Source: Verrucomicrobiales bacterium (GTDB lineage: Bacteria > Verrucomicrobiota > Verrucomicrobiia > Verrucomicrobiales > DEV007). From it: a stretch of 64,000 nucleotides of DNA. Below are positions 12,210 to 41,216 of this stretch, piece by piece. Both the position numbers and the translations under genes were made by a program. The DNA is taken from NCBI GenBank assembly GCA_029940475.1, contig JAPYUT010000009.1, positions 16,605 to 80,604 of the forward strand, given 5' to 3'. Under the pieces are notes generated by a model. That model saw only the letters and a list, made by a program, of their open reading frames with translations. It did not search any database and had not been told where the DNA came from. The stretch's first letter is position 1. Every line of letters starts with the position of its first letter.

Positions 12210-13916
12210 TTACTTGGGGCGTCCGGTGTCAAAGATTTCAATAACCTCGTTTGTATCAAGAGCGCGTCCGAAAATGGCTAATTCATCGATGCGCCCGGTA
12301 AGGTTCCTGACAGGTCTTTTGCCGTTCGGGAGTTTGCCGGCGAAGTTTCCGATTTCCAAATCGCTAAAAGTGACACGGAGTACATTTTTTTCGTGGGGTG
12401 GGCTCTGTCCCCAGGCGCGGGCCTTGGAGATTTCCTTGCCATTGAGGAAGTGCTTAACTGAATTATTGATCGAGTCATAGATTGTCACCAGATGGTGCCA
12501 TTTGTTAATGGAATTGGCGGTGAACACGACAGGTGAATTATAATGGTGAACTTTGTTTTCATCATTAGCCCGAATAGAAAAACGGATTCTTCCATCACGC
12601 TGGATTGTCCAATCGAATGCGCCGATTTTTCTGCTATGGCTGGAGAGAAGTGAAACCAGGTGCTTTCGTGGTGGGGCATCAAACCGGATCCAGGTACTGA
12701 AAGTAAGCACCTGGTGGCTTCCCGTGGAGTTGATCCTGACACGGTCGCTTGCGCGACTGAACTCAAGGGAACCCTTGCTTGGCCAGCGTCCGTTGGTCCA
12801 GCGGCATCCGACAATTGCGCCGTGGGTGAACATTTTCTTGTAGACCGCCTGATTGACCAACTGGCGTTCTCGGGGTCCCTGATCTTCAAATGTGTAAAGG
12901 GCGAGGATATCTGCATCTGCACGCATTCGCTCAACGAGATGAGTCCATTTAGTGTGACGCAGCGTGGAATTCTCAAGTGAGTTGTGGGCAATGTCCTCAT
13001 AGGACACAAATGCCATTGAATTTGCCTCAATATTATGGGTGCGATTTGTCTGGATTTTCAGGGCCTCGCCGGATTGCAGATGCCGGATTGCCGTTGTCTT
13101 TTCGCGGCCGTTTTTCTGCGGGGGAGCGCCATGGACTGCAAGCTGCCCATTGAAGCAGTGGATTTCGGTCATGTGCCCGTCTTCCTCGATACTGACACCG
13201 AATTCACCGGCCGGGTGCGCTATATCAACATGTGATGTGTTCAGGGTAAATCCCTTTGCCTGTCCGGGAATGTGTGCACGTATTCTTCCCTCACCGAGTG
13301 TCCCGCTGTTCTCCGAGGTCAGGTCGAGGACCGAAGGCCCCTCCAGGATAACGCGGGCCCCGCTGTAGAATTCGATTTCCGCAATACCGGACTCGAGGCG
13401 TAATTCACCGAGGGGAAGGATTCCCCCGTTCTTTAACGGCTGAAGCTCTCCATTGCCGAAGCTGGCGTCGACTGTGCCCATGAGGATTGCAACACCATTA
13501 TCGATGGGGATCTCAGTGGCTTTAAGTTGGCTGCCAGTCAATGGGTTCTTCTTGCCGGAGAATAATGCAATTGAGCCCGCGAGAAACATCAGGCCGGCAG
13601 CAGCTGCAAACCAGGGCAGGGGTCTCCAACTCGGGTTGAGAATCTGTTTTGTGCTCTGTCCACGGAAGAACAGGGATGTCGTCTTGGAAAGATCCAGCGG
13701 AACTGTCTTGCGGCCGATTTCAATGGACGGCTTGCAACTGCATTCCAGATCAGTGTCTGCACACATCTGGCTGTAGTCCAAATAGAACTCGCAGGCCTCA
13801 GGATCACCTTTTAACAAGGCTTCAATACGTGCGGTATCCGCCCGTGAGGCGGTGCCGTCATGGAGGGCGGAAAGTAGCTTCTCAAGCTCCACGAATTTTG
13901 CCAGCTTACCGTTCAT
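12210..13916 (-). CDS. FecR-family anti-sigma factor with C-terminal LamG (concanavalin-like) domain
   Basis: 568 aa, directly downstream of the ECF sigma gene. Features in order: a helical N-terminal anti-sigma-like segment; a TM (WFAAAAGLMFLAGSIALF); a FecR-like region (GELRLESGIAEIEFYSGARVILEGPSVLDL); and a LamG-like C-terminus (LTFSTWIRFD, WHHLVTIYD, GRIDELAIFGRAL). Confidence 0.65.
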   Translation of the reverse strand: MNGKLAKFVELEKLLSALHDGTASRADTARIEALLKGDPEACEFYLDYSQMCADTDLECSCKPSIEIGRKTVPLDLSKTTSLFFRGQSTKQILNPSWRPLPWFAAAAGLMFLAGSIALFSGKKNPLTGSQLKATEIPIDNGVAILMGTVDASFGNGELQPLKNGGILPLGELRLESGIAEIEFYSGARVILEGPSVLDLTSENSGTLGEGRIRAHIPGQAKGFTLNTSHVDIAHPAGEFGVSIEEDGHMTEIHCFNGQLAVHGAPPQKNGREKTTAIRHLQSGEALKIQTNRTHNIEANSMAFVSYEDIAHNSLENSTLRHTKWTHLVERMRADADILALYTFEDQGPRERQLVNQAVYKKMFTHGAIVGCRWTNGRWPSKGSLEFSRASDRVRINSTGSHQVLTFSTWIRFDAPPRKHLVSLLSSHSRKIGAFDWTIQRDGRIRFSIRANDENKVHHYNSPVVFTANSINKWHHLVTIYDSINNSVKHFLNGKEISKARAWGQSPPHEKNVLRVTFSDLEIGNFAGKLPNGKRPVRNLTGRIDELAIFGRALDTNEVIEIFDTGRPK

Positions 13917-13958
13917 ACTGATTGTTCTTACCTCTTGATGTCGTGAATTGATGATTTC

Positions 13959-14486
13959 TCAACCTGGTTGTTCCGCAGCGAGTGTTTTTTCGATACAAAT
14001 CATCAAATTATGGCGGATTCGGTAGAGAGTTTGCGAGATCGCTCCGACTGTACGCTGCTGTTCAGCAGCGATCTGCTGCACCGATGCCCCTGGCTGGTAG
14101 CGCGCTTCTACCAGTTTACGATGATGCTCCGGGAGCTTCTGCAGGCAGTTGCGCAGTGCCCTGCTGCGGTCGAGAACTCCTTCTTCTGCGATACGGTGAT
14201 CATTGCGTTCGGCCAGGTAATCAAGGATATCATCATCAAAGACGATTTTTTCCCGGGCCATTTTCCGCCGGAAGGCCAGGACATGAAAATATGCAACCCT
14301 GCAGGCCCAGGCATTAAAATTGGTACCTTCCTCGAAATCGTCCGCTTTTTTCCAGAGCGTAATGTTTGTTTCCTGGAGGAGATCCCGGGCCCTGTTACGG
14401 TCGAGAAGCAAGGTCACAATGTAGCCATATACAGGACCCTGCGCTTCGGTGAGAAGCCGAACGAATTCTTCGGAATCGGATTCCAT
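13959..14486 (-). CDS. ECF-type RNA polymerase sigma-70 family factor
   Basis: 175 aa. Region 2 is LLQETNITLWKK...FNAWACRVAYFHVLAFRR. The region 4 helix-turn-helix is ASVQQIAAEQQRTVGAISQTLYRIRHNL. Confidence 0.85.
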   Translation of the reverse strand: MESDSEEFVRLLTEAQGPVYGYIVTLLLDRNRARDLLQETNITLWKKADDFEEGTNFNAWACRVAYFHVLAFRRKMAREKIVFDDDILDYLAERNDHRIAEEGVLDRSRALRNCLQKLPEHHRKLVEARYQPGASVQQIAAEQQRTVGAISQTLYRIRHNLMICIEKTLAAEQPG

Positions 14487-14706
14487 TGTCAGTAATGTTT
14501 AAAGGCCCAGCTGACAATAGTAGCATAACAGAGACCAGAGTAAACCGAACTCACAGCGACGGCACCACACTGGTTCATTCAGCGGGTCCCTGGTTTTTCC
14601 CGGGTGGGGTCTTCGTGTCAGTTACAATTCAGGGGCAATGATTGCCAGAGTCTAAGATGTCACGAGACATCAAGGGATGCAAAATACCCTTTTCGGGAGG
14701 AGTTGG

Positions 14707-15378
14707 CTATCGTCGCGGACGTCGCAACAGGGCAAGGTTTGTCTCTTTAATGATATCCCGTTTGCGCTTGCGCGCGGGCATTAATATCAAGAGTAAGCCG
14801 CTGAGGCCTGCAGAGATGATGAGGATTAGATCCATGTCTATTTTGCCATCCTCAATAAAGCCGCTATTGCTTTTGAAAGTCCCCTTGGGGTTCTTCAAGG
14901 CTCGGGTCTTGAGAAGATTCACCACTTCTTTCTTGCGGTCACTGATGAGCAGTCTTCCGCTGGCGGAAAGTGATCCACTGTTCATAATACTCTCACTAAG
15001 GAAAAAAACGGGACTGCTGAGAATGCTTGCCTGATGGATGTGCGACGTATCCAATCCAATGTCGTCGTTATGCCATATCATTCCGGTATTGCCACTGTTC
15101 AGAAAATCGGAACAGTCTTTGGTGATCTGAGTTGCGGTTGCTGCCGGCCAGGAAATAGGCACAAGATTGCTGCCATCTTCAATGGCATGTATAACGACTG
15201 GCAGAGCATGTTGCGGCCGGTTATCAGCATGGCCGACACTGCCGGAAACGGAGTTGTCGTCATGGATTTGAAGCCCCATCACAAACGCTGCTGCCTGACT
15301 GCCCTGCATAGAGAGTCCAAGAAGGACGCAGCAAGTGCCAGCCAAGGTATAGAAAACTTGTGATTTTAAAGTGCCCAA
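14707..15378 (-). CDS. hypothetical exported protein with C-terminal TM segment and basic tail
   Basis: 223-aa ORF opening at a TTG. It has a signal-like N-terminus (TLAGTCCVLLGLSMQGSQAAA) and a C-terminal LILIISAGLSGLLLILMPARKRKRD, which resembles a PEP-CTERM-type anchor without the PEP motif. No recognisable catalytic motif. Confidence 0.4.
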   Translation of the reverse strand: MGTLKSQVFYTLAGTCCVLLGLSMQGSQAAAFVMGLQIHDDNSVSGSVGHADNRPQHALPVVIHAIEDGSNLVPISWPAATATQITKDCSDFLNSGNTGMIWHNDDIGLDTSHIHQASILSSPVFFLSESIMNSGSLSASGRLLISDRKKEVVNLLKTRALKNPKGTFKSNSGFIEDGKIDMDLILIISAGLSGLLLILMPARKRKRDIIKETNLALLRRPRR

Positions 15379-16165: not shown

Positions 16166-18835
16166 ATGAAAAACTTCCCGTGTGTTTTCGTCGCATTGGG
16201 TTTGCTGCTTGGGTTGCTTACTCAAGTTGCAACCCGGGCGGATGATGACTGGTGGTCGCGGCAGGCAATGGTCAAGCCTGAGGTTCCCCCGGCAAACGAG
16301 TGGTGTCGCAACGAGGTTGACCGTTTTATTCTGGACAAACTTCGCGAGAAAGCAATGAAGCCCTCTGCGCAAGCTGATTCCTTGGCCCTGGTTCGACGGG
16401 TCACCCATGACCTGACCGGCCTGCCACCCACGCCACGGGAAGTGGAGGAATTCCTGCAATCCTCCGGGCAAAACGCAGACAAGGCCTACGCGGAACTGGT
16501 GAGTCGCCTCCTCGAATCGCCCCGCTACGGTGAACGATTTGCCCGGCACTGGCTTGATGTGGCCAAGTATGCCGATACCTGCGGCTACGACAAGGATAAG
16601 CTGCGTCCCAACGCATGGCCTTACCGGGATTATGTCATTCGTTCCTTGAACGAGGACAAGCCTTACGCTCGCTTCGTGCAGGAGCAGGTCGCGGGAGATG
16701 CCCTCTTTCCCGGCAAACCCGATGGCATCCTCGGGCTTGGGTTTCTCGCCGCCGGGCCCTGGGACTTCATCGGCCATTCGGAGGTACCGGAAAGCAAGAT
16801 TGACGGCATGGTCGCACGCAATCTCGATCGCGATGACATGGTTTCCAACGTTCTCAATACCTTTTGCGCCGTCACCATCCAGTGCGCCCGCTGCCATGAG
16901 CACAAAGGCGACCCGTTCACGCAGGACCACTACTACAGCCTGCAATCGGTGTTCGCCGCAATTGACAAGGCCGACCGCAAGTACGGAAGCGATCCTGCCA
17001 CTGAAAAACGCAGGCTGGACCTGCAGGCCTCACTCACTGATCTGCGTAAAAACAAGGAGGGCATCGAGGCAATCATCCAGAAGGAAGGTGGTCCAGAACT
17101 GGCCAGGTTCGAATCGCAGATAAAGGTGTTGCAGGTAAAGACAAAGCCAGCCGGCAAACGTCCGGAGTTCGGTTACCACAGCAACGTCGAGAAATCTCCC
17201 GATCGTGCCAAGTGGGTACAGCTCGACCTTGGTGAACGCGTGGACATTGAAAAAATCGTGCTGCATGCCTGCCATGACGCTTTCAACAATATTGGCGCAG
17301 GGTTCGGGTTTCCCGTTCGCTTCAAGGTCATCGCATCCAACCACCGGGATTTCTCCCGCTCGCAAGTGTTGGCGGACGAGTCGGGCAAGGATTTCCCCAA
17401 CCCGGGTTTGATTCCTGTCGAGTATGCCGTTGATTCCTCCGCGCGATACCTTCGCGTCAATGCCACAAAATTGGCCAAGCGGGCCGCTAATGACTTCAAC
17501 TTTGCCCTGGCTGAGGTTCAGGTGCTGGATGACGCCGGCAAGAACCGTGCCTTTAAGGCAAAGGTTTCCTCGCTTGATTCCATTGAAGCCGCGCTTCGCT
17601 GGCGACGTTCCAACCTGACCGACGGCATCTGGGCCAGAGGAGCGGATCAGGATTCCGTTGAGAAAATCACCAGGTTAAAAAAGGGAAAAGACGCTCTTCT
17701 CGCCAAGCTTAACACCCCGCAACGAAAGGCTCGCCTAGAGGATCTGGGAAAGGCCATCAAGGAGAAGGCTGACAAAATTGCCAAGCTTCCCAAGGGCAAC
17801 ATGGTCTATGCGGCGGCCACTCATTTCAAGGCAGGGGGGAACTTCAAGCCCACCAACGGTAAGCCCCGTGCCATCCGTCTTTTGCACCGTGGAGAGGTCA
17901 CTCAACCACGGCAGGAGGTAAGGCCCGGAACACTGCCTATCTTCAAGGATGAGGCATGGCAATTTGACCTTGCCGAGAACCACAAGGAGTCCGCCCGCCG
18001 GGTTGCTCTCGCAAGGTGGCTCACCCGTGAGGATCACCCGCTCACCTGGCGCGTCATCGCCAATCGCGTCTGGCAGTGGCACTTCGGCGAGGGCATCGTT
18101 GCGTCTCCCAACGATTTCGGCGGTCTGGGGCAGGTTCCCAGCAATCCCGAACTCCTGGACTGGCTGGGCTTGTATTTTCGTGACAACGGCGGTTCCTTCA
18201 AGAAACTCCACAGGCTGCTCGTCATGAGCGCCACCTACCGACAGGCCTCGACCAATCACGTCGACTATGCAAAGGCTGACTCCGGCAATCGTTTCCTCTG
18301 GCGCATGAACCGCAGGAAACTTTCCGCCGAGGAAATTCGCGATGCAATACTCTCAGTCAGCGGCAAGCTTGACCTGCAGATGGGTGGTCCGGGTTATTAC
18401 CTCTTTGCCCTGGAAAAGACCGCCCACTCTCCGCACTACGAATACCACAAGTTCGATCCCGAGGATCCAAAAAGCCACCGCCGATCCATCTATCGGTTCA
18501 TCGTGCGCTCCCAGCCTAATCCCTTCATGACCACGCTTGACTGCGCTGACTCCTCCCAAAGTACACCCAAGCGTAACGAGACCCTCACCGCGCTGCAGGC
18601 ACTCTCACTGTTGAACAACAAGTTCAGCCTGGCCATGGCCCGCCACTTTGCCGCACGACTCGAAGAAGAGGCCAAGGAACAGGCCGGACAGGTGAGACGT
18701 GGCTACCAATTGGTCACCGGGCGTGTTCCTTCCGGGAAGGTGCAGGATCTGCTGGAGGGTTACGCCGGCAAGCACGGCACCATCAATCTCTGTCGCGTCC
18801 TTTTCAACTTGTCCGAATTCACCTACCTGGACTGA
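16166..18835 (+). CDS. DUF1549 (PSCyt2) / F5-8 type C discoidin / DUF1553 (PSD1) domain protein
   Basis: 889 aa with a signal peptide. The N-terminal region has RFILDKLREKAMKP...DLTGLPPTPREVEEF...ESPRYGERFARHWLDVAKYADT. The central discoidin-like segment has VQLDLGERVDIEKIVLHAC...RYLRVNATKL...FALAEVQVL. The C-terminal PSD1-like region has LARWLT...NPLTWRVIANRVWQWHFG...FDCADSSQSTPKRN. Confidence 0.85.
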   Translation: MKNFPCVFVALGLLLGLLTQVATRADDDWWSRQAMVKPEVPPANEWCRNEVDRFILDKLREKAMKPSAQADSLALVRRVTHDLTGLPPTPREVEEFLQSSGQNADKAYAELVSRLLESPRYGERFARHWLDVAKYADTCGYDKDKLRPNAWPYRDYVIRSLNEDKPYARFVQEQVAGDALFPGKPDGILGLGFLAAGPWDFIGHSEVPESKIDGMVARNLDRDDMVSNVLNTFCAVTIQCARCHEHKGDPFTQDHYYSLQSVFAAIDKADRKYGSDPATEKRRLDLQASLTDLRKNKEGIEAIIQKEGGPELARFESQIKVLQVKTKPAGKRPEFGYHSNVEKSPDRAKWVQLDLGERVDIEKIVLHACHDAFNNIGAGFGFPVRFKVIASNHRDFSRSQVLADESGKDFPNPGLIPVEYAVDSSARYLRVNATKLAKRAANDFNFALAEVQVLDDAGKNRAFKAKVSSLDSIEAALRWRRSNLTDGIWARGADQDSVEKITRLKKGKDALLAKLNTPQRKARLEDLGKAIKEKADKIAKLPKGNMVYAAATHFKAGGNFKPTNGKPRAIRLLHRGEVTQPRQEVRPGTLPIFKDEAWQFDLAENHKESARRVALARWLTREDHPLTWRVIANRVWQWHFGEGIVASPNDFGGLGQVPSNPELLDWLGLYFRDNGGSFKKLHRLLVMSATYRQASTNHVDYAKADSGNRFLWRMNRRKLSAEEIRDAILSVSGKLDLQMGGPGYYLFALEKTAHSPHYEYHKFDPEDPKSHRRSIYRFIVRSQPNPFMTTLDCADSSQSTPKRNETLTALQALSLLNNKFSLAMARHFAARLEEEAKEQAGQVRRGYQLVTGRVPSGKVQDLLEGYAGKHGTINLCRVLFNLSEFTYLD

Positions 18836-18837
18836 AG

Positions 18838-20289
18838 ATGATGACCAATTCCTCGCGTAGGGACTTTCTCAAGCAATCAAGTTTTGGTAGCATTGCTCTT
18901 GCCTCGATGCTGGCCAGGGATCCCCTCTGTGCCGCCACTCCCGCCATGTCCCAAGGCCTTCATCATCCGCCTCGGGCCAAAAGAGTGATCCAGCTTTTCA
19001 TGGCCGGGGCCGCGAGCCATCTCGACATGTTTGACTTCAAGCCAGAACTGATCAAGCGGCACGGCGAGAAGTCCGACTTTGGCGAGCACGTGGAGGCTTT
19101 CCAGAACGGGCTCGGACCGTGGATGAAGTCCCCCTTCGCCTTCAAGGCTTACGGCAGGTGCGGGAAACTCCTGAGCGACATCGTTGCTCCCCTCGGCGAG
19201 GTGGTCGATGACATCGCCTTCATCCACAACATGGTGGGCAAGACAGGCGTTCACAGCCAAGCCACCTATCTGCAGGCCACCGGCTTCCAGTTACCCGGGT
19301 TTCCCGGGGCAGGTTCATGGGTAAGTTATGGCCTGGGCTCGGAGAACGAGAACCTGCCCGCCTTTGTAGTCCTGCCGGATCACCGGGGTTACGCCTCCAA
19401 TGGTCCCAAGAACTGGGGTTCCGCTTTCCTCCCCACTCATACCCAGGGCACTACCATTTTCCCCCAGCGCGAGAATCCCATCGAGGATCTTCACCCTCAT
19501 GCCGACTACGTCACCGAGGCCAGTCACCGCGAAGGCATAGATTTGGTTAACCAGTTGAACCGTCGACACCGCCAATCCCGTCAGGGAGATGCGCGCCTCG
19601 ATGCCCGCATCCGCAGCTACGAGTTGGCTGCCCGCCTCCAGATCTCCGCCACCCGGGCACTTGATATTTCGAAGGAGCCGAACCATATCCTCAAGATGTA
19701 CGGACTCGACAGCTCCAAGACAAAATATCCAAAGAACATCAACCCCGAGGAGGAGACCGAATATTTCGGTCGCAAGTGCCTCATTGCCCGCCGGCTAATT
19801 GAGCGGGGTGTGCGCTTCGTCCAGATCTGGAGTGGCAACGACAATAGTTTCCCCCGCAGGAACTGGGACAGCCACGAGGACATGACCCGCGATCACCCAT
19901 CCCTTTCGCTTGGCATGTCACGGGCTACTGCGGGGCTGATCCAGGATCTGAAGCAACGCGGCCTGCTTGAGGACACCATCATTCACTGGACCACCGAGTT
20001 CGGTCGCATGCCCAGCAGTCAGGCAGGGAAGGGGAGGGATCACAACCCGTATGTATTCACCAACTGGTTCGCGGGCGGCGGCATTAAGGGCGGAGTCACC
20101 CATGGCCAGAGTGACCAGTGGGGATACAAACCTCTTGATCGTCAAAATCCCACCCAAGTCTACGACGTGTATGCCACCATGCTCCACCTCCTCGGCATCG
20201 ATCACGAGCGCCTGACGGTGCGACACAACAGCATCGACCGCCGCCTCACCGACGTCCACGGGCACGTGATCCCGGAGATCCTGGCGTAG
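18838..20289 (+). CDS. DUF1501 (sulfatase-like fold) protein with twin-arginine signal
   Basis: 483 aa. Tat-type SRRDFLKQSSFGS, and DUF1501 hallmarks (GAASHLDMFDFKPE, GRDHN, C-terminal DVHGHVIPEIL). It starts 3 nt after the DUF1553 gene, the usual paired arrangement. Confidence 0.85.
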   Translation: MMTNSSRRDFLKQSSFGSIALASMLARDPLCAATPAMSQGLHHPPRAKRVIQLFMAGAASHLDMFDFKPELIKRHGEKSDFGEHVEAFQNGLGPWMKSPFAFKAYGRCGKLLSDIVAPLGEVVDDIAFIHNMVGKTGVHSQATYLQATGFQLPGFPGAGSWVSYGLGSENENLPAFVVLPDHRGYASNGPKNWGSAFLPTHTQGTTIFPQRENPIEDLHPHADYVTEASHREGIDLVNQLNRRHRQSRQGDARLDARIRSYELAARLQISATRALDISKEPNHILKMYGLDSSKTKYPKNINPEEETEYFGRKCLIARRLIERGVRFVQIWSGNDNSFPRRNWDSHEDMTRDHPSLSLGMSRATAGLIQDLKQRGLLEDTIIHWTTEFGRMPSSQAGKGRDHNPYVFTNWFAGGGIKGGVTHGQSDQWGYKPLDRQNPTQVYDVYATMLHLLGIDHERLTVRHNSIDRRLTDVHGHVIPEILA

Positions 20290-20302: not shown

Positions 20303-20686
20303 TTATTTCGTTGCTGCCAGGATCTTGCCGATGACCTCGTCCACTTTTTCCTTGCCGTAGGTATGGCCGTCGACCTTGGTCAGCAATTTACCGGCTTTAT
20401 CCTTCGCGATAATTCCGTGTGTAGCCAGCTTGGCTTTCTTGATTTCCTCGGCACTGTTGCCCTCACCAACTTTCACGGTATAAATGTCAATTTTTGAGCC
20501 GTGCTTCTTTTTCTGGTCATTCACGATGACTGTTATTTTTGAGCAAAGCACTCACCCATCGAAGTAGTAGTAAGTAAGTGAGGGTTTCTTGGAGTCGCCT
20601 GCGGTCGTTTTTTCCTCTGCCGCGTGGGAGAGTGCTAACAGCAGTAGCGCAAGCAGGCTGGCAGCCAGTGTCTTCGGTAATCTCAT
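20303..20686 (-). CDS. candidate exported thioredoxin-fold selenoprotein (in-frame TGA at 20554..20552 read as Sec)
   Basis: The ATG at 20686 opens MRLPKTLAASLLALLLLALSHAAEEKTTAGDSKKPSLTYYYFDG. This is followed by TGA and then, in frame, VLCSKITVIVNDQKK...GKILAATK, which is the 82-aa ORF of the track. The result is a signal peptide, a beta-strand and a U-x-x-C motif. A nested stem-loop follows the TGA. Confidence 0.55.
20501..20551 (-). promoter_or_regulatory. SECIS-like nested stem-loop immediately 3' of the in-frame UGA
   Basis: Minus-strand RNA: UGA-GUGCUU-(15 nt)-GUCAU-CGUGA-AUGAC-(9 nt)-AAGCAC. The outer 6-bp stem is perfect. The apical 5-bp stem has a 5-nt loop containing GU and begins 21 nt after the UGA. 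Confidence 0.35.
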
Positions 20687-22443: not shown

Positions 22444-22935
22444 ATGTACCGAGTGCTGAGCTTCTCTGTTCTCCTCGTCACCTGGCTTGTTCTTTCCGGA
22501 CTGATTGACTGGTTCCATGTGTCATTGGGGATTATTTCCTGCGCACTGGTCACGTGGTGGTCTTCCGACATGCTGTTTTCTGATCGTTCAATTGCGCCGC
22601 GTGCCCGCCTGTCGCAGTTCTGTCGTATGCCGGGTTACCTGCTCTGGCTTCTCGGGCAGATTGTCCTGGCCAACCTGCACGTCCTCCGCCTCGCGTTTTC
22701 ACCGAGATTGCGGGAGGAGATTGAGCCGCAACTGGTGCGCTTTAGCAGTGGGCTTAGTACGGATTTCCAGAAGTTCGTCCTTGCACAGTCTATTACCCTT
22801 ACCCCGGGAACCGTAACCCTGAAGATCGAGGGCGATGAGTTCGTGGTCCACGCGATCAGTGATTCTGCAGCCCGGGGATTAACGGGCCCGATGACCGAAC
22901 GCGTCAGGCATGTTTTTTGTGACGGCGAGCAATGA
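22444..22935 (+). CDS. mrpE: Mrp/Mnh-type cation:proton antiporter subunit E
   Basis: 163 aa. Two N-terminal TMs and the MnhE signature SITLTPGTVTL...VVHAI. The stop overlaps the next start (ATGA). Confidence 0.8.
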   Translation: MYRVLSFSVLLVTWLVLSGLIDWFHVSLGIISCALVTWWSSDMLFSDRSIAPRARLSQFCRMPGYLLWLLGQIVLANLHVLRLAFSPRLREEIEPQLVRFSSGLSTDFQKFVLAQSITLTPGTVTLKIEGDEFVVHAISDSAARGLTGPMTERVRHVFCDGEQ

Positions 22936-23246
22936 ATGCCATGATGGAAACATTCTTTATCTATGCCGGCATTACCTTGCTTTTGATGATGGCTCCGGTG
23001 TTCTACCGTATTATGGTCGGCCCCACGGCAATTGATCGTATTGTTGCGGTGAATGTCATTGGTACCAAAACCGCAGTGTTACTGATCATTATCGGGACGC
23101 TGTTTGAGAATGTCGCGATGTTCGTGGACTTCGCGCTTGCCTATGCCCTGCTGAACTTCATCGGTTCGCTTGCGGCGGCACGTTACTTTAACAAGACCAG
23201 GCCGGCCTATGGTGCCGGTGCATCGGGGGAAGGGGAAATTAACTGA
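22932..23246 (+). CDS. mrpF: Mrp/Mnh-type antiporter subunit F
   Basis: 104 aa, 3 TMs, and the GPTAIDRIVAVNVIGTK motif typical of MrpF/PhaF. Confidence 0.8.
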   Translation: MNAMMETFFIYAGITLLLMMAPVFYRIMVGPTAIDRIVAVNVIGTKTAVLLIIIGTLFENVAMFVDFALAYALLNFIGSLAAARYFNKTRPAYGAGASGEGEIN

Positions 23247-23247
23247 G

Positions 23248-23658
23248 ATGGTGATTGATATTTTAAGTATTCTGCTGATTCTTGCCGGGTTGCTGTTTTT
23301 CCTTGGAGCGGTTGTGGGTATTGTCCGCTTCCCCGACTTTTATACCCGTATGCACGCAGCGGGGAAGGGTGACACGCTCTCGACCATGCTCATAACCGGG
23401 GCAATGGCGTTGCAGGTTTTTCATCATTTTGACTGGGCACATTGGACGGAGATCTTTGTGGTGGTGAAGATCATGGCTATTGGTATCCTCATCATGCTGA
23501 CCAGCCCGACCAGCACCCATGCCTTGATGCAGGCGGGATATGATGACGGCATTGAACCGGTTACCCGTCCCGCCAAGAAGGGCATTGCCAGCCTTGATGG
23601 GGGTGATGAGTTATTGCCGGTTCCAGGGGCAGAAATGCCGGAGGAGGCTGAAGAGTAA
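23248..23658 (+). CDS. mrpG: Mrp/Mnh-type antiporter subunit G
   Basis: Start placed at the ATG at 23248 (MVIDILSILLILAGLLFF). It carries the MnhG signature GIVRFPDFYTRMHAAGKGDTLS. The track's longer ORF (23170) overlaps mrpF out of frame. Confidence 0.8.
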   Translation: MVIDILSILLILAGLLFFLGAVVGIVRFPDFYTRMHAAGKGDTLSTMLITGAMALQVFHHFDWAHWTEIFVVVKIMAIGILIMLTSPTSTHALMQAGYDDGIEPVTRPAKKGIASLDGGDELLPVPGAEMPEEAEE

Positions 23659-23672
23659 GGAGCTGATATTCC

Positions 23673-23918
23673 ATGATTTGGCAATTTGATATCATCATCC
23701 TGATCCTCATGGTCGTTGCCGCGATCATTTCCCTGCGCGTGAAGGATTTGCTTGGTGCCACGATGGTGTTTGGCATCTACTCCTTTCTCATTTGCCTGCT
23801 TTGGGCGGAGATGGGTGCGGTTGATGTCGCCTTCACCGAGGCGGCGGTCGGGGCGGGTGTCTCGACAGTAATCATGACTGCCACCGTTTTTTCAACCACA
23901 AGGAGGTCTAGGGACTAG
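23673..23918 (+). CDS. small DUF4040/MbhD-like membrane subunit (equivalent to the C-terminal part of MrpA)
   Basis: 81 aa, 3 TMs, LRVKDLLGATMVFGIYSFLICLLWAEMGAVDVAFTEAAVGAG. Its position between G and B matches Mbh-type and cyanobacterial-type Mrp clusters. Confidence 0.65.
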   Translation: MIWQFDIIILILMVVAAIISLRVKDLLGATMVFGIYSFLICLLWAEMGAVDVAFTEAAVGAGVSTVIMTATVFSTTRRSRD

Positions 23919-23926
23919 AATCGGGC

Positions 23927-24679
23927 ATGAAATTTTTCGGCTTTATTGCGGTTGTCGTGGTCGGCACCCTGTTATTGGTGGCAACCGGTGATTTCCCGGG
24001 CTGGGGTAATCCTCACTCGCCTGCCAGTGAGGGCCAGGTTTCCGGATTCTATATCGAGCAGACGGTGAATGTGACAAAAGTTCCCAACATGGTTACCGCG
24101 GTGCTCGCTGATTTCAGGGGCTATGACACGATGTTTGAAACGGTCGTGATCTTTATTGCCGGGATAGGTATCATTGCCGTATTGCGCACGTTTGGTGATA
24201 CTGCCGGAAAGGCATCCGATTACCCGGAACCCGACGAGGGCAGCGACATTATTGTCCGCAGCACCTGCCATCTTATGGTGCCGTTGATTCAACTTTTTGC
24301 CCTTTATGTGGTGGCTCACGGCCATCACAGTCCCGGGGGAGGTTTCCAGGGGGGAGTGATGCTGGGGGCGAGCTACATTCTTTTGGCTCTGGCCTGCGGA
24401 CTGCCGGTCGCCAAGAGGCGCATGGGCGAACGCAAGGCTATTGTACTTGCGGCGACAGGTATCATCATCTATGCCGGCTGGGGAGTTGCCTGCCTGTTCT
24501 TCGGAGGCAATTTCCTTGATTACGCCAGCCTCGACCCCGTTCTTCCCGGGGATAAAGAGATGGCGCGCTCACACAGCATGCTGGTCGTTGAGATTGGGGT
24601 CGCTTTTACTGTCACGGCGATCATGTTCGCCATTTATTCGAACCTGGCCACCCGGGGGCGCCTTGAAAAAGGCCTGTAA
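23927..24679 (+). CDS. mrpB: Mrp/Mnh-type antiporter subunit B-like protein
   Basis: 250 aa. MnhB signature NMVTAVLADFRGYDTMFETVVIFIAGIGI, and multiple TMs. Confidence 0.75.
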   Translation: MKFFGFIAVVVVGTLLLVATGDFPGWGNPHSPASEGQVSGFYIEQTVNVTKVPNMVTAVLADFRGYDTMFETVVIFIAGIGIIAVLRTFGDTAGKASDYPEPDEGSDIIVRSTCHLMVPLIQLFALYVVAHGHHSPGGGFQGGVMLGASYILLALACGLPVAKRRMGERKAIVLAATGIIIYAGWGVACLFFGGNFLDYASLDPVLPGDKEMARSHSMLVVEIGVAFTVTAIMFAIYSNLATRGRLEKGL

Positions 24680-24682
24680 GGC

Positions 24683-25126
24683 ATGGAATTGTTAGCTGCA
24701 GGATTTATCGAGGACAATATTGTCCCCAAGTTCAATTACTGGATTTACGTGATCCTCATGATGATCGGGCTCTACGCCATGATCACCAAGAACAACCTGA
24801 TCAAGAAGTTGATCGGGATGGCGGTTTTCCAGACGGCGATCATCCTGTTCTATGTGTCAATCGGGGTCAAGGAGGAGAGTGGAATCCCGATACTGGGCCA
24901 CGGGCAGCACCATGAGATTGTCGAGGAGGGTAAGCCCAGCGGAGAAGTGATCACCAAGGATGAATTTGCCAATCCACTGCCCCACGTGCTGATGCTCACG
25001 GCCATTGTTGTCGGGGTCAGCACCCTTGGGCTTGCCCTGGCGATTTCCCAGCGGATTCATGGTTCCTTTGGCACCCTTGAGGAGGACGAGATACTGGATC
25101 AACTTCGACCCGGCGGGCATGACTGA
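24683..25126 (+). CDS. mrpC: Mrp/Mnh-type antiporter subunit C (NuoK-like)
   Basis: 147 aa. NuoK-like MMIGLYAMITKNNLIKKLIGMAVFQTAIILFYVSIG, with an inserted loop of about 40 aa before the last TM. Confidence 0.75.
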   Translation: MELLAAGFIEDNIVPKFNYWIYVILMMIGLYAMITKNNLIKKLIGMAVFQTAIILFYVSIGVKEESGIPILGHGQHHEIVEEGKPSGEVITKDEFANPLPHVLMLTAIVVGVSTLGLALAISQRIHGSFGTLEEDEILDQLRPGGHD

Positions 25127-26648
25127 GCATTATCCGGTAGTCATCCTTATGGCGCCCCTGTTTGGGGCACTGCTGGCGACTCTCCTCGGCAGGGGACGGC
25201 AGGTTGCGTGTTGGTGGACTGCCCTGATTGCCCTTGGTATTTCTGCGTTGTTTGCCGTTGGTAATATTTGCGCCGTTCTGGCCTCCGGGGAGGGTGAATT
25301 GCGCTACCGGATGGGCGGATGGCATGAAAGCTCCGGTTATGAGGTGGGCATTGAGTTGCGCGTTGACATGCTTGCCGCCCTTGTCGTTGCCGCGGTGACC
25401 CTCGTTGGTTTCGTTAACACGATTTTCGCCAAGACCCGTGTCACCGGGGAGATGAGGGAGAAGGTTTCCTTCTACTATGCGCTCAACCAGCTGCTCATCG
25501 TAGGGTTATGCGGGATCGTGATGACCAATGATGCATTCAATCTATATGTGCTCATTGAGATCACTTCACTGACGAGTTATGCGCTGATCGCGATGGGCAA
25601 CCGGCGCGCGGCACTCTCCAGCTTCAATTACATCATCATGGGAACCATTGGTGCCTCGTTTTACCTGCTGGGGGTTGGCTACCTCTACATCAAGACAGGC
25701 ACTCTCAATATTGATGACATCCGCGGTGTACTGCAGTCCGGCAATCTTTGGGGGCATGCCAGCATAACGATTGCGTTCATTCTCATCATGCTCGGGGTGT
25801 GGATTAAGATGGCCCTTTTCCCACTTCATGGCTGGTTGCCTAACGCTTATTGCTACGCGCCGAGCGCGGTGAGCAGTTTCATGGCGCCGCTGATGACCAA
25901 GGTCATGGTTTATGTGATGCTGCGCGTCATGCTCTGGTTGTTTGGCAGTGAATATGTTTATTCAAGCGGACATGTCTGGGGAGAATTGATCATCTGGATG
26001 TCGATAATCGCTATTGTCGCCGGTTCTTTTTTAGCCCTTGCAAGGACCGACATTAAAAAAATGCTGACTTACCTTATTGTCGCGGAGGTTGGCTACATGG
26101 TTGGCGGTGCCTGGCTGGTCAACGGTGCCGGGCTTGCGGGCAGCATGTATCATATTTTCTCGGATGCGGCGATGACCTTTTGCCTCTTCCTGGCAGCATC
26201 GATTGTCATTCTGCGCACCGGGGATCACCGCCTGACAGCCTTTAATGGTCTTTTTCGCAGGATGCCGCTCACCATGATCGGGTTCACGGTGGGAGCCCTG
26301 TCAATGATCGGGTTGCCGCCGACCTGCGGGTTTTTCAGCAAATGGTATCTCATCAGCGGCGGGATTGAGGCTGGGCACTGGGCTTATGTTGCCGCGCTAT
26401 TGTTCTCGAGCCTGGTCAACGCCGTCATCTTTTTCAGGATCTTTGAGCGTGCCTATTTCGGTAATCTCAAGGGGGTTGCTGATGAGCAATTTCCCGATGA
26501 CAGGGATTCCGCGCCGCCGCTTACGCTGGAAAGGGTGCCGTGCTCGATGCTGATCCCGCTTTTCCTTGCCGTCATGGCAGTCCTGCTTGTCGGTATCTAT
26601 AACAATACCCTTGTCAGTTGGCTCAAGGCCGCAATGCCGCCGCTATAG
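25119..26648 (+). CDS. mrpD: Mrp subunit D-like proton-translocating antiporter subunit (NuoM/N family), copy 1
   Basis: Start at MTEHYPVVILMAPLFGALLA, with ATGACTGA overlapping the mrpC stop. About 14 TMs. Proton_antipo_M-type core (LYVLIEITSLTSYALIA, FPLHGWLPNAY, TYLIVAEVGYM). Confidence 0.8.
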   Translation: MTEHYPVVILMAPLFGALLATLLGRGRQVACWWTALIALGISALFAVGNICAVLASGEGELRYRMGGWHESSGYEVGIELRVDMLAALVVAAVTLVGFVNTIFAKTRVTGEMREKVSFYYALNQLLIVGLCGIVMTNDAFNLYVLIEITSLTSYALIAMGNRRAALSSFNYIIMGTIGASFYLLGVGYLYIKTGTLNIDDIRGVLQSGNLWGHASITIAFILIMLGVWIKMALFPLHGWLPNAYCYAPSAVSSFMAPLMTKVMVYVMLRVMLWLFGSEYVYSSGHVWGELIIWMSIIAIVAGSFLALARTDIKKMLTYLIVAEVGYMVGGAWLVNGAGLAGSMYHIFSDAAMTFCLFLAASIVILRTGDHRLTAFNGLFRRMPLTMIGFTVGALSMIGLPPTCGFFSKWYLISGGIEAGHWAYVAALLFSSLVNAVIFFRIFERAYFGNLKGVADEQFPDDRDSAPPLTLERVPCSMLIPLFLAVMAVLLVGIYNNTLVSWLKAAMPPL

Positions 26649-28130
26649 ATGATCGAAGAATCTTACCTGCCCCTGCTGGCCTGGATGGTGTCGCTGCTTG
26701 CGGTGCCAGCCATCCTGCTGATGCGTAGAAGCCCCAATGTTCGTGAGGGCACGACATTCGTTGCCGCGTTCGTCAAGTTCGCTCTTGTGTTGGCGATGCT
26801 GCCTGCGGTTATGGCAGGTGGAGTGCTGCGTTTTAGCTTTGGCGAGATTCTTCCGGGCATTCCCCTTGAGTTCCGGGTAGATGGACTCGGGATGCTTTTT
26901 GCCCTGGTGGCTTCTTCCCTCTGGATACTGACGACTCTCTATTCCGTTGGTTATATGCGGGGTCTCAAGGAGCATGACCAGACAAGGTTCTTTGCATGTT
27001 TCGCGGTTTCAATCTCGGCCACGATCGGCGTTGCCTTCGCCGGCAACCTTTTCACTCTCTATCTCTTCTACGAGATGTTGTCGCTCTCGACCTACCCGCT
27101 GGTGACTCATCACGGTGACAAGGAGGCGCGCAGCGGCGGTCGCACCTACCTGAGCCATCTTCTCGGGACCTCGGTTGCCTTTGTGCTGCCGGCAATGATC
27201 TATTGCTGGGTCAAGTCCGGCGGTGACATGAGCTTCACTGACGGGGGCTTCCTTGCAGGGAAGATCGGTCCTGGGGATGGGCTCATTGTGCTCCTCGCAT
27301 TCACCCTTGGATTTGCAAAATCCGGCCTGATGCCGTTCCATTCCTGGCTGCCCAATGCGATGGTTGCGCCAACGCCGGTCTCCGCTTTGCTGCATGCCGT
27401 GGCGGTCGTCAAGGTGGGTGTATTCTGTATTTTGCGGGTATTTACCGGCGTGTTTGGCATCGATACACTCAAGGATCTGGATATCACCACCGCGGTCACC
27501 TATATAGCCGGCTTCACCGTGATCACCTCTTCGCTTATTGCGCTGACCCAGGATAACCTGAAACGCAGGCTGGCTTTTTCGACAATAGGCCAGCTGGCAT
27601 ATATCATTCTTGGCGTGTCGTTGCTCTCCGCTCATGGCATCACCGGCTCGGCGATGCATATTGCAATGCATGCTTTCGGGAAAATCACCCTGTTCTTTTG
27701 CGCGGGTGCTATTTTCATGGCGACCGGGAAGAAATACGTCAGCCAGATGGTTGGCATCGGCCGGCAGATGCCGGTGACCATGACCGCTTTCCTGCTCGGT
27801 TCCCTGAGTATTATCGGTCTGCCGCCCTTTGGTGGCGCCTGGAGCAAGTGGTATCTGTTTCTTGGTGCTCTTGATGCCGGGCAGCTAATGATAGCGGCGA
27901 TCCTGATCATCAGTTCCCTGTTGAACATCGCTTATTTACTTCCCGTGGCGGTTAACGCCTTGTTCCGTCAACCTCCCGGGGGCAGCGACGATATCGCAGC
28001 CGTGGGGATCAGGGAAGCTCCCGCAGCCTGCGTGATCCCGTTGAGCATAACGGCGGTGGCCGGATTTATTCTGTTTCTTTTTCCCGACCTGGTCTTCGAC
28101 CTGGCACAACTCCTGATTAGCAATGGCTGA
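26649..28130 (+). CDS. mrpD: Mrp subunit D-like antiporter subunit (NuoM/N family), copy 2
   Basis: 493 aa. Motifs: LYLFYEMLSLSTYPLV, MPFHSWLPNAMVAPTPVSALLHAVAVVKVG and FSTIGQLAYIILG. Confidence 0.8.
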   Translation: MIEESYLPLLAWMVSLLAVPAILLMRRSPNVREGTTFVAAFVKFALVLAMLPAVMAGGVLRFSFGEILPGIPLEFRVDGLGMLFALVASSLWILTTLYSVGYMRGLKEHDQTRFFACFAVSISATIGVAFAGNLFTLYLFYEMLSLSTYPLVTHHGDKEARSGGRTYLSHLLGTSVAFVLPAMIYCWVKSGGDMSFTDGGFLAGKIGPGDGLIVLLAFTLGFAKSGLMPFHSWLPNAMVAPTPVSALLHAVAVVKVGVFCILRVFTGVFGIDTLKDLDITTAVTYIAGFTVITSSLIALTQDNLKRRLAFSTIGQLAYIILGVSLLSAHGITGSAMHIAMHAFGKITLFFCAGAIFMATGKKYVSQMVGIGRQMPVTMTAFLLGSLSIIGLPPFGGAWSKWYLFLGALDAGQLMIAAILIISSLLNIAYLLPVAVNALFRQPPGGSDDIAAVGIREAPAACVIPLSITAVAGFILFLFPDLVFDLAQLLISNG

Positions 28131-33961: not shown

Positions 33962-34186
33962 GTCTCCTTCCCGCCTTCACCCCGCCTAACGGCAGGATTG
34001 GCATGCCGGGAATTTGTATCCAGATACCGCAGCGCAAACTGTCCCGGGTTCTAACCGGGTTCCATGCACCGAGCTGGTATGTAGGAAAAACCGTTACTCA
34101 GAACATATCAGAGAGCAACCGGAATATGGGACTTGGAACTTTAATCTCATGTGGGACTATATTGGCAATGCCCCATCATTATGGAG

Positions 34187-41047: not shown

Positions 41048-41216
41048 ACCCGACACGGGACGTCGAGTATCTTTCCAGAGGAATAACAAGATAATGGTTG
41101 AGGCACGGCAGGCTGTTGCCGGGGGAACCGGCAACCTTGGCACAGCGGTTTGATCAGGATTCCTGCCTGTTTATAATTTGTTGCCACTCATCGGTGATAT
41201 ATGCACAGTTGGAATC

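What the first reader, a model, noticed from the sequence alone, without database searches (positions are those of the whole stretch)
20303..20686. Candidate exported thioredoxin-fold selenoprotein: an in-frame UGA in a U-x-x-C motif joins a signal peptide to the 82-aa ORF
Seen in sequence: on the minus strand an ATG at 20686 opens MRLPKTLAASLLALLLLALSHAAEEKTTAGDSKKPSLTYYYFDG. This is followed by TGA (20554..20552). The same frame then continues with VLCSKITVIVNDQKKKHGSKIDIYTVKVGEGNSAEEIKKAKLATHGIIAKDKAGKLLTKVDGHTYGKEKVDEVIGKILAATK. The track's 82-aa ORF starts at the GTG that directly abuts this TGA. Read through, the product has 127 codons. It has a cleavable signal peptide (SHA/AE), a hydrophobic strand LTYYYF, DG-U-VL-C at the start of a helix, and then an alternating strand/helix pattern. 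Established knowledge: thioredoxin-fold oxidoreductases carry their CxxC motif at exactly this strand-to-helix junction. Most bacterial selenoproteins are redox proteins in which Sec replaces one Cys of such a motif. Inference: the TGA is decoded as selenocysteine. Without recoding, the locus would yield a 44-aa signal peptide with no cargo. It would also yield an 82-aa protein lacking a signal peptide, the first strand and half of the redox motif.
Basis: partly seen in the sequence, partly recalled or inferred. Interest (0 to 1): 0.8.

Follow-up and report, generated by a model that had tools for sequence, protein, structure and literature searches.

The report
Exported thioredoxin-fold selenoprotein, mis-called as truncated ORF
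The in-frame TGA is almost certainly read as selenocysteine, so this is one secreted 127-residue thioredoxin-like selenoprotein; it belongs to an uncatalogued, almost exclusively selenium-using branch of the thioredoxin family found in marine Verrucomicrobia.

Summary
On the minus strand there is an ATG at 20686, an in-frame TGA at 20554..20552 and a TAA at 20305..20303.

The selenoprotein reading is well supported.
- All 46 related copies from 37 Verrucomicrobiales genomes plus metagenome contigs, and 5 distant members, have TGA at this codon. Only one homologue has Cys (CxxC).
- TGA is otherwise the commonest stop codon in the window.
- A hairpin lies 21 nt after the UGA (GUCAU-CGUGA-AUGAC). 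Its synonymous sites are frozen, and distant members show compensatory stem changes. It fits three of the four published bacterial SECIS criteria outright. The Cys homologue lacks it.
- AlphaFold and Foldseek give a thioredoxin fold. U aligns with Trx Cys32.
- Every member has a signal peptide or lipobox.

The family has no Pfam or NCBIfam model. Profile comparison (E 1e-19) and a shared SECIS core place it as a divergent offshoot of PF00085-type Sec-thioredoxins. It has lost the cis-Pro and gained two invariant histidines beside the U-x-x-C site. Some members are tandem two-Sec proteins. The gene repeatedly sits next to PSCyt/PSD–DUF1501 pairs.

Not shown: selA/B/C/D in this genome (none in about 1.27 Mb held), and the biochemical function.

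Verdict: a real feature, a new variant of a known kind, of moderate interest.

The parts
20303..20686 (-). Complete selenoprotein gene: 127 codons (44 + UGA/Sec45 + 82) plus the TAA stop
   Evidence: sequence, translation, ORFs. (homologues read through the same TGA).
20621..20686 (-). Signal peptide, residues 1-22 (MRLPKTLAASLLALLLLALSHA, predicted SPase I cut SHA/AE)
   Evidence: Read from the sequence: charged n-region, hydrophobic core, small residues at -3 and -1; every family member has an equivalent N-terminal signal, with a lipobox in several distant members and in the Cys homologue. No dedicated predictor was available.
20552..20554 (-). UGA codon 45, read as selenocysteine (first position of U-V-L-C)
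   Evidence: TGA in 46/46 copies. TGA in 5 distant members. TGC in the single Cys homologue; aligns with Cys32 of E. coli thioredoxin. TGA is otherwise the commonest stop (17 of 37 long ORFs).
20543..20545 (-). Cys48, the resolving Cys of the U-x-x-C motif
   Evidence: Invariant in all members. Aligns with Trx Cys35.
20516..20530 (-). SECIS apical hairpin GUCAU-[CGUGA]-AUGAC. The stem starts 21 nt after the UGA and the loop 26 nt after it.
   Evidence: codons +8..+11 are invariant at synonymous sites (H = 0-0.17 bits against 0.5-1.8 elsewhere); compensatory changes in 4 of 7 pairs, 87% of cells paired against at most 42% when slid, 0/500 shuffles reach the observed covariation; pairs 25-39 and 26-38 are paired 25/25 in family sequences against 18/37 and 23/37 in chance hits; fits the published bSECIS loop, stem and spacing rules.
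20498..20551 (-). Possible extended SECIS: a lower stem pairing codons +1..+3 with roughly +15..+18 around a large internal loop
   Evidence: this architecture is the MFE in about 24 of 33 sequences (window -10.5 kcal/mol). The register shifts between clades and the z-scores are weak (mean -0.74). Suggestive only.
20417..20419 (-). His90 of the invariant H-G at the start of strand beta3, where thioredoxins have Ile75-cisPro76
   Evidence: Invariant across the wide family. Position mapped by hhalign.
20363..20365 (-). His108 of the invariant G-H after strand beta4 (Trx Gly92-Ala93 position)
16166..20289 (+). Convergent neighbour pair: PSCyt2/PSD1 (DUF1549/DUF1553) protein 16166..18835 and DUF1501 protein 18838..20289. 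Candidate functional partners.
   Evidence: Pfam; this pair subfamily lies next to the selenoprotein gene in at least 4 different arrangements, and all 15 PSCyt2/PSD1 hits in 575 kb of flanks belong to the adjacent pair.

Best explanation
One gene (20686..20303, minus strand) encodes a 127-residue precursor of a secreted thioredoxin-fold selenoprotein.

How the UGA is read. UGA45 is decoded as selenocysteine. A small hairpin in the coding sequence 21 nt downstream (GUCAU-CGUGA-AUGAC, loop carrying G-U) acts as the bacterial SECIS that recruits SelB with Sec-tRNA(Sec). This RNA requirement in turn fixes the peptide V-I-V-N-D.

What the protein is. The signal peptide is cleaved and the mature ~105-residue domain works outside the cytoplasm. 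Its redox or ligand centre is a selenol/thiol pair, Sec45-x-x-Cys48, at the N-terminus of helix 1. It is flanked by two invariant histidines (His90 in place of the thioredoxin cis-Pro, and His108).

Where it comes from. The family is a divergent, almost exclusively Sec-using offshoot of PF00085-type Sec-thioredoxins, with which it shares the SECIS core and spacing.

What is shown:
- the conserved in-frame TGA;
- coding on both sides of it;
- an RNA-level constraint with covariation;
- the thioredoxin fold and the alignment of the motif;
- the signal peptides.

What is inferred:
- actual Sec insertion;
- export;
- oxidoreductase or metal-handling chemistry;
- any functional tie to the neighbouring PSCyt/PSD-DUF1501 proteins.
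For: TGA conservation: 46/46 core copies from 37 Verrucomicrobiales genomes plus metagenome contigs, and 5 distant members. About 31-37 further members appear in the metagenome scan, but that scan required TGA in its search pattern.

The 'W' in the full-length database proteins is a TGA in the DNA.

The upstream codons use synonymous alternatives freely, so that region is coding.

TGA is a normal stop in this window, ending 17 of 37 long ORFs.

SECIS: frozen synonymous sites, compensatory pairs, and absence from the Cys homologue L043. It matches the bSECIS rules for loop size, G in the first two loop positions followed by U, and 26-nt spacing (PMC13188914).

The same 11-nt core at the same spacing occurs in about 50 U-x-x-C proteins whose representatives pass Pfam PF00085.

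Fold: AF2 pLDDT about 90 for the mature domain, with beta-alpha-beta-alpha-beta-beta-alpha topology. Foldseek gives 214 PDB hits at E <= 1e-3, the top ones being thioredoxins. hhalign against TrxA gives E 2.9e-5 with U<->C32 and C<->C35. hhalign against the Sec-thioredoxin group gives E 1.1e-19.

Signal peptides are present in all members.

The Sec trait is documented in Rubritalea marina and marine Verrucomicrobia SAGs.
Against: No selA, selB, selD or tRNA-Sec was found in the window, in the 575 kb of genome flanks, or in the 657 kb of metagenome loci. The machinery is therefore unproven for this genome.

The window's apical hairpin alone is weak (-3.3 kcal/mol). The published -7.5 kcal/mol criterion is reached only if the uncertain lower stem is counted (-10.5), and that fold is not better than shuffles (z -0.5).

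No Rfam model matches.

There is no protein-level evidence. The AF2 model used W as a placeholder for U, and atomic distances could not be read out.
Confidence: 0.87

Rival explanations
1. SelB-independent programmed read-through: UGA45 is decoded at low efficiency by a near-cognate tRNA (Trp, Cys or Arg), and the conserved hairpin acts as a read-through stimulator. This would yield a short peptide plus a full-length protein without selenium.
For: No Sec machinery was found in the sequence held. The window's hairpin is small and weak. The conserved TGA and hairpin would fit this model too.
Against: The codon sits exactly at the nucleophilic Cys32 position of a thioredoxin CxxC, and it is Cys in the only non-TGA homologue. 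The hairpin meets the SECIS-specific rules for G-U in the loop and 16-37 nt spacing. It is shared with PF00085-type U-x-x-C proteins. The Sec trait exists in the lineage.
Confidence: 0.05
2. Two separate products: a 44-aa secreted or leader peptide ending at the TGA, and an independent 82-aa cytoplasmic protein starting at the GTG. This is how current gene callers annotate the locus.
For: A GTG abuts the TGA in the window. Databases hold many 72-86-aa calls of this kind.
Against: In about half of the homologues the codon after the TGA is CCN (Pro), and callers choose different internal starts, so no start codon is conserved. The 82-aa piece lacks strand beta1 and half of the redox motif of a confidently predicted thioredoxin fold. 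The upstream part always supplies a signal peptide plus beta1 in the same frame. The Cys homologue is one continuous ORF. Tandem forms have two such junctions in one frame.
Confidence: 0.03
3. Genome-wide reassignment of UGA to Trp or Gly (code 4 or 25), as the database 'W' translations imply.
For: ENA and NCBI calls show W at the position. Code 4 exists in two Verrucomicrobiota ciliate endosymbionts (PMC13462651).
Against: TGA terminates 17 of 37 long ORFs in this window. The known code-4 Verrucomicrobiota are tiny endosymbiont genomes, not free-living marine taxa. A local RNA element would be unnecessary under a global reassignment.
Confidence: 0.01
4. Pseudogene or sequencing/assembly error that created a premature stop.
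For: It is a single in-frame stop inside an otherwise intact ORF.
Against: The identical codon occurs in more than 50 independent assemblies, with purifying selection on both sides.
Confidence: 0.01

Closest known systems
Sec-containing thioredoxins / 'Trx-like' selenoproteins (Pfam PF00085, U-x-x-C; listed in PMC13188914 and as Trx-like families in the GOS survey PMC2398784)
   Same: Thioredoxin fold, with U-x-x-C at the beta1-alpha1 junction and U at the Cys32 position. Profile-profile E 1.1e-19 to a set of such proteins. Same SECIS core CAUCGUGAAUG at the same 26-nt spacing.
   Different: The window protein does not reach PF00085 or any NCBIfam thioredoxin model. The cis-Pro is deleted and replaced by an invariant His-Gly, and a second invariant Gly-His follows beta4. 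The motif is Y-Y-Y-F-D-G-U rather than W-C-G-P-C. Cys forms are almost absent (1 of 60 representatives). All members are exported.
Bacterial SECIS element (bSECISearch consensus; E. coli fdhF type)
   Same: Stem-loop within the coding sequence just downstream of the UGA. 5-nt apical loop with G at position 2 followed by U, 5-8 bp upper stem, 26 nt between UGA and loop.
   Different: In the core clade it is very short and weak (-3.3 to -5.3 kcal/mol). Eleven nucleotides are invariant across distant lineages, whereas bSECIS elements are generally described as dissimilar in sequence (PMC13188914).
Thioredoxin-like selenoprotein SaoT (NF040730), TsoX (NF045809) and GOS_C (NF045500): small catalogued Trx-like U-x-x-C selenoproteins
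   Same: Small Trx-like selenoproteins with U-x-x-C. There are weak sub-threshold hits to SaoT and TsoX.
   Different: Scores are far below the cut-offs (24.8 against 65 bits, and 18.8 against 52). There is no hit at all to GOS_C, to the HUIPC-motif model or to the VPGUxxT model. The signature and genomic context are different.
Sco/SenC-type thioredoxin-fold copper chaperones (CxxxC plus His). Named from my own knowledge, as an analogy only.
   Same: Exported thioredoxin-fold protein in which the di-Cys motif is combined with conserved histidine(s) near the active site.
   Different: The motif spacing differs (CxxxC against UxxC), as do the His positions. There is no sequence relationship, and metal binding was not tested here.

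Membership tests
Bacterial selenoprotein (SelB/SECIS-dependent UGA recoding) | In-frame UGA conserved in orthologues, with coding conservation on both sides | tested here: met
   46/46 core copies and 5/5 distant members have TGA. The upstream codons vary synonymously.
Bacterial selenoprotein (SelB/SECIS-dependent UGA recoding) | Cys-containing homologue aligning Cys with the UGA | tested here: met
   P0108/L043 has AIPG-C-VV-C with a TGC codon and is translated under the standard code. It is the only one among 60 representatives. At superfamily level, U aligns with thioredoxin Cys32.
Bacterial selenoprotein (SelB/SECIS-dependent UGA recoding) | bSECIS: 3-9 nt apical loop, 4-16 bp upper stem, G in the first two loop positions, 16-37 nt from the UGA (PMC13188914) | tested here: met
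   Loop CGUGA, stem 5-8 bp, spacing 26 nt. Covariation supports the stem.
Bacterial selenoprotein (SelB/SECIS-dependent UGA recoding) | bSECIS minimum free energy <= -7.5 kcal/mol | tested here: inconclusive
   The window hairpin alone gives -3.3, and distant members reach -13.9. The 60-nt fold with a lower stem gives -10.5, but z is only -0.5.
Bacterial selenoprotein (SelB/SECIS-dependent UGA recoding) | Genome encodes selA, selB, selC (tRNA-Sec) and selD | not testable with these tools
The trait is documented for Rubritalea marina and two Verrucomicrobia SAGs.
Bacterial selenoprotein (SelB/SECIS-dependent UGA recoding) | Selenium actually incorporated (75Se labelling or mass spectrometry) | not testable with these tools
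   Experimental.
Thioredoxin family (Pfam PF00085) | Significant match to the PF00085 profile | tested here: not met
   No Pfam hit for the precursor or the mature domain. The sister U-x-x-C proteins score 28-54 bits against a cut-off of 23.5.
Thioredoxin family (Pfam PF00085) | Thioredoxin fold with C/U-x-x-C at the N-terminus of helix 1 | tested here: met
   AF2 topology, Foldseek matches to thioredoxins at TM about 0.7, and hhalign with U<->C32 and C<->C35.
Thioredoxin family (Pfam PF00085) | Conserved cis-Pro loop facing the active site | tested here: not met
   An invariant His-Gly occupies Ile75-Pro76. The Pro column is a gap against the Sec-thioredoxin profile.
Catalogued small Trx-like selenoproteins (SaoT NF040730, TsoX NF045809, GOS_C NF045500, HUIPC NF047660, VPGUxxT NF041383) | Score at or above the NCBIfam cut-off | tested here: not met
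   Best hits are SaoT at 24.8 bits (cut-off 65) and TsoX at 18.8 bits (cut-off 52). The others give no hit.

The most novel reading that the evidence does not exclude
The invariant Sec-x-x-Cys plus His90 plus His108 cluster may not be a generic disulfide reductase site. It could be a dedicated selenolate/thiolate/imidazole centre, either metal-binding (for example Cu, Zn or Hg) or a specialised catalytic site. On this reading it matures or services the enigmatic exported PSCyt/PSD-DUF1501 (and DUF1552) gene pairs of Planctomycetes-Verrucomicrobia. That would give the first functional handle on those pairs, and an example of a thioredoxin-fold family that has become almost obligately selenium-dependent.
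Probability: 0.15. Interest if true: 0.7.

Novelty: new variant of a known kind. Interest (0 to 1): 0.5.

Why it matters
The gene is mis-annotated wherever I could see it: as a 72-86-aa fragment, as two ORFs, or with a spurious Trp. Correcting this adds a selenoprotein to the proteomes of abundant marine Verrucomicrobiales.

The family is useful for three reasons.

(1) It is nearly Cys-free (1 Cys form among 60 representatives). That is the kind of family that Cys/Sec-pair pipelines tend to discard (PMC12013277).

(2) It shows clearly how a SECIS hairpin dictates protein sequence. V-I-V-N-D, T-I-V-N-G and P-I-V-N-G co-vary so as to keep the stem. The same 11-nt core is shared with many Sec-thioredoxins from soil, freshwater and sea, which gives a simple nucleotide signature for finding more of them.

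(3) The loss of the cis-Pro, the gain of two histidines, and the recurrent adjacency to PSCyt/PSD-DUF1501 pairs suggest a specialised extracytoplasmic function that can be tested.

Tried and rejected
- A PDB sequence search gave only repeat-noise WD40 hits.
- Rfam found nothing relevant at the gathering or E-value threshold.
- A single-sequence fold of the post-UGA region was unremarkable. RNAalifold on the core clade shows an invariant hairpin with no covariation, so covariation had to come from distant members.
- The lower stem recurs, but its register shifts and it is not significant. I did not claim it.
- phmmer with E. coli SelD, SelA and SelB sequences recalled from memory found nothing in about 1.27 Mb. 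ARAGORN found no tRNA-Sec.
- A scan for other in-frame TGA redox motifs in the window and the flanks gave only wrong-frame noise. Window 63675..63998 and 40869..41747, and L012:15983, were rejected.
- The search for related loci on the divergent alignment failed because no conserved stretch was available.
- An exact-product look-up for the window's 82-aa ORF found no record.
- The family motif is absent from the held GOS and Sargasso supplements, although one GOS file is truncated. The BSepDB supplements are not held.
- Sigma-70 promoter and terminator scans around the gene were uninformative.
- A literature search on DUF1501/DUF1549/DUF1553 function found nothing useful.

Full report
OBSERVATION

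The minus strand reads ATG (20686) followed by 44 codons, MRLPKTLAASLLALLLLALSHAAEEKTTAGDSKKPSLTYYYFDG. TGA follows at 20554..20552. The frame then continues with GTG CTT TGC... for 82 codons to TAA at 20305..20303. The mechanical ORF list shows the two pieces as 20552..20686 (44 aa) and 20303..20551 (82 aa, GTG start). The description is exact.

IS THE TGA MEANINGFUL?

A search with U replaced by C found 62 relatives, none with a Pfam domain. Most are 72-86-aa calls that begin just after the TGA position. A few full-length ones show W at that column.

Fetching their DNA showed that the W is a TGA that gene callers had translated under an alternative code. A Rubritalea-type contig encodes a signal peptide followed by two tandem modules, each with ...PSLTYYYIDQ-TGA-PMC....

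A scan of one genome per species returned 37 loci, all from marine Verrucomicrobiales MAGs or SAGs: Akkermansiaceae, Verrucomicrobiaceae, Roseibacillus and Rubritalea. Across all the loci and the window, 46 of 46 occurrences of the motif have TGA. None has TGT, TGC or TGG.

TGA is nevertheless the commonest ordinary stop in the window, ending 17 of 37 long ORFs. That rules out a reassigned code. The known UGA-to-Trp Verrucomicrobiota are two tiny ciliate endosymbionts (PMC13462651).

The ten codons upstream of the TGA keep their amino acids while using synonymous codons freely, so that region is translated in this frame. In about half of the aligned sequences the codon after the TGA is CCN. 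It cannot be a start codon, which argues against an independent downstream gene.

THE RECODING SIGNAL

Codons +8 to +11 after the TGA (GTC ATC GTG AAT) are invariant at the nucleotide level in 41 unique sequences. Their synonymous entropy is 0-0.17 bits, against 0.5-1.8 bits for every other conserved codon. They form the hairpin GUCAU-[CGUGA]-AUGAY. Because the hairpin is invariant within the core clade, covariation there is uninformative.

An exhaustive profile search of 1.84 billion representatives found only 60 proteins at E <= 1e-3. These include distant members at about 25% identity. Five of them were examined at the DNA level. All five have the TGA and keep CAU-CGUGA-AUG, but they change the lower stem in a compensatory way: GU/AC becomes AC/GU, CC/GG, AAAC/GUUU or CGAGG/CCUCG.

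On a combined alignment, 4 of the 7 pairs have double changes. 87% of cells are paired, against at most 42% when the partner is slid, and 0 of 500 shuffles reach the observed covariation.

The amino acids at +8 and +12 co-vary accordingly (V/D, T/G, P/G). So the RNA constrains the peptide.

The only Cys-containing homologue is P0108/L043, with AIPG-C-VV-C, a TGC codon and a continuous ORF. It lacks the hairpin.

The element meets the published bSECIS criteria for loop size, stem length, G within the first two loop positions followed by U, and 16-37 nt spacing; here the spacing is 26 nt (PMC13188914). The energy criterion is met only in distant members, or in the window if an uncertain lower stem is counted. 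No Rfam family matches.

THE PROTEIN

AlphaFold2 was run on the full-length homologue P0001, which is 60% identical to the window protein and carries W as a placeholder for U, with a 49-sequence alignment. The mature domain has pLDDT of about 90. The order of elements is beta1 (36-41), U45, alpha1 (46-62), beta2, alpha2, beta3, beta4, alpha3.

Foldseek finds 214 PDB chains at E <= 1e-3. The top hits are thioredoxins, with TM about 0.7 on the target and rmsd about 2.2 A over about 92 columns.

It aligns U with Cys32 and C with Cys35. The invariant His-Gly aligns with Ile75-cisPro76, and the invariant Gly-His aligns with Gly92-Ala93. In thioredoxin these two loops flank the active-site disulfide (my own knowledge). 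I therefore infer that Sec45, Cys48, His90 and His108 lie together. I could not measure distances, because model coordinates are not exposed.

Every member has an N-terminal signal peptide. Several distant members and the Cys homologue have a lipobox (lipobox motifs in P0108 and L047 read). The family is therefore extracytoplasmic.

Neither Pfam nor NCBIfam recognises the family. The best NCBIfam hits are SaoT at 24.8 bits against a cut-off of 65, and TsoX at 18.8 against 52. A PDB sequence search is uninformative.

PLACE AMONG KNOWN FAMILIES

A metagenome scan used the signature TGA-N6-TGY-N14-CATCGTGAATG. These break down as follows:
- about 31-37 members of the His-Gly...Gly-His family;
- about 50 other U-x-x-C proteins reading P-I-V-N-G, with a Pro at the cis-Pro position (VPT, QPTF, TPTF, SPEF);
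- about 30-39 chance matches.

Five representatives of the second group pass Pfam PF00085 (28-54 bits against a cut-off of 23.5), while the window's mature domain gets no hit.

Stem pairs 25-39 and 26-38 are paired in 25/25 and 25/25 family sequences, in 45/46 and 43/46 Sec-thioredoxins, and in only 18/37 and 23/37 chance matches.

Profile-profile comparison of the two groups gives 99.2% probability and E 1.1e-19 over 90 columns. The cis-Pro column is gapped in the window's family.

The window's protein therefore belongs to a divergent branch of the thioredoxin-family selenoproteins. That kind is listed in the 2026 review (PMC13188914) and in the GOS survey (PMC2398784). The branch differs in four ways:
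- it has lost the cis-Pro;
- it has two invariant histidines;
- it is exported;
- it is almost never found with Cys. The ratio is 1 in 60 representatives, and the Cys form is a singleton.

The family motif is absent from the held GOS and Sargasso supplements, although one file is truncated.

[quoted passage not shown] This family does have Cys relatives, but only one close one, which may explain why it is not catalogued.

SEC MACHINERY

I found no tRNA-Sec, SelA, SelB or SelD in the window, in 575 kb of genome flanks or in 657 kb of metagenome loci. No other convincing selenoprotein gene turned up in those flanks either. Whole genomes cannot be reached with these tools, and the window's exact product is not on record.

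Independent support comes from Table S2 of Peng et al. [quoted passage not shown] It lists Rubritalea marina DSM 17716 and two marine Verrucomicrobia SAGs. Rubritalea is one of the genera that carry this family.

CONTEXT

In the window the gene is monocistronic. It converges on a PSCyt2/PSD1 (DUF1549/DUF1553) gene plus a DUF1501 gene (16166..20289), and it diverges from a SASA esterase gene, which is followed by an Mrp antiporter operon.

The same subfamily of the PSCyt2/PSD1-DUF1501 pair lies beside the selenoprotein gene in several arrangements:
- convergent in the window's clade;
- directly upstream and co-directional in an Akkermansiaceae clade and in the distant member L047;
- divergent in Roseibacillus.

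These pairs score E about 1e-80 to 1e-90 against the window's pair, compared with about 1e-25 for other DUF1501 paralogues. All 15 PSCyt2/PSD1 hits in the 575 kb of flanks belong to the adjacent pair.

In L009 the gene instead follows the other Planctomycete-type pair, a PSCyt3/PSD2-5 protein plus DUF1552. In another clade it follows a beta-propeller/ankyrin protein plus an amidohydrolase. About half of the loci show no such pair. I found nothing useful in the literature on what these pairs do. The link is suggestive and is not proof of function.

VERDICT

The chemistry remains inferred; it could be disulfide or selenenylsulfide exchange, or a Sec/Cys/His/His ligand site. So does the partnership with the PSCyt/PSD-DUF1501 proteins.

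It is a new variant (an unmodelled subfamily) of a known kind. Interest is moderate. Thioredoxin-fold selenoproteins are numerous, but this one is almost exclusively selenium-using, lacks a hallmark residue of its fold, and illustrates RNA-imposed protein conservation clearly.

Noticed in passing
window 33940..34063 (-): A cobalamin riboswitch aptamer (RF00174, 50.2 bits, E 1.4e-9) lies immediately upstream of three minus-strand ORFs (33032..33961, 32007..33035, 31273..32010). These look like an operon and were not annotated here.
   Followed up: no
P0001, P0002, P0004-P0006, P0011, P0066, P0111 (loci L001, L002, L046): Public gene calls on short contigs translate the selenocysteine TGA as Trp, apparently by choosing genetic code 4. 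This creates spurious 'W-x-x-C' full-length proteins in the databases.
   Followed up: yes
L003:424-1134, L004, L005, L040 (TGAs at 10109 and 10415): Rubritalea-type members are tandem two-module proteins. They have two in-frame TGAs and two copies of the SECIS hairpin in one ORF of about 233 residues.
   Followed up: partly
L052-L168 (for example L053, L062, L071, L079): About 50 PF00085-type U-x-x-C thioredoxins from soil, freshwater and marine metagenomes share the same 11-nt SECIS core CAUCGUGAAUG at the same distance from the UGA, encoded as P-I-V-N-G. One subgroup (…EFFAVTU-VDC…SPEF…DPLC) has extra conserved Cys and His residues.
   Followed up: partly
L009:6530-9940 (+); L062:1154-4090 (-): In L009 the selenoprotein gene follows the other Planctomycete-specific pair (PSD3/PSD5/PSD4/PSCyt3/PSD2 protein plus DUF1552 HXXSHH). 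In L062 a cis-Pro-type Sec-thioredoxin lies 2.5 kb from a PSCyt2/PSD1 gene. Trx-like selenoproteins may be recurrent companions of PSCyt/PSD systems.
   Followed up: partly
P0085 (82 aa): This homologue has a signal peptide joined directly to the C-terminal half (…HGIIANNKDGKLVQIVNGHAYGK…) and no U-x-x-C region. It may be a truncated paralogue or a mis-assembly.
   Followed up: no
L111 (TGA at 1752): This is the only family member in which the second invariant His is Gln (…EGQTYGK…). It is otherwise nearly identical to L080 and L134, so it may be a sequencing error or a natural variant of the proposed site.
   Followed up: no
window 22444..28130 (+): A multisubunit Mrp/Mnh-type cation/proton antiporter operon (MnhE, MnhG, MnhB/MbhE and Proton_antipo_M subunits) lies just beyond the divergent SASA esterase gene. 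MnhE is also adjacent in L006-L008 and L021.
   Followed up: partly
window 12210..15378 (-): An ECF-type sigma-70 factor (13959..14486) is flanked by a 223-aa ORF with no Pfam hit (14707..15378) and a Laminin_G_3 protein (12210..13916). The sigma factor and the 223-aa ORF are conserved next to the PSCyt2/PSD1 gene in L007.
   Followed up: no
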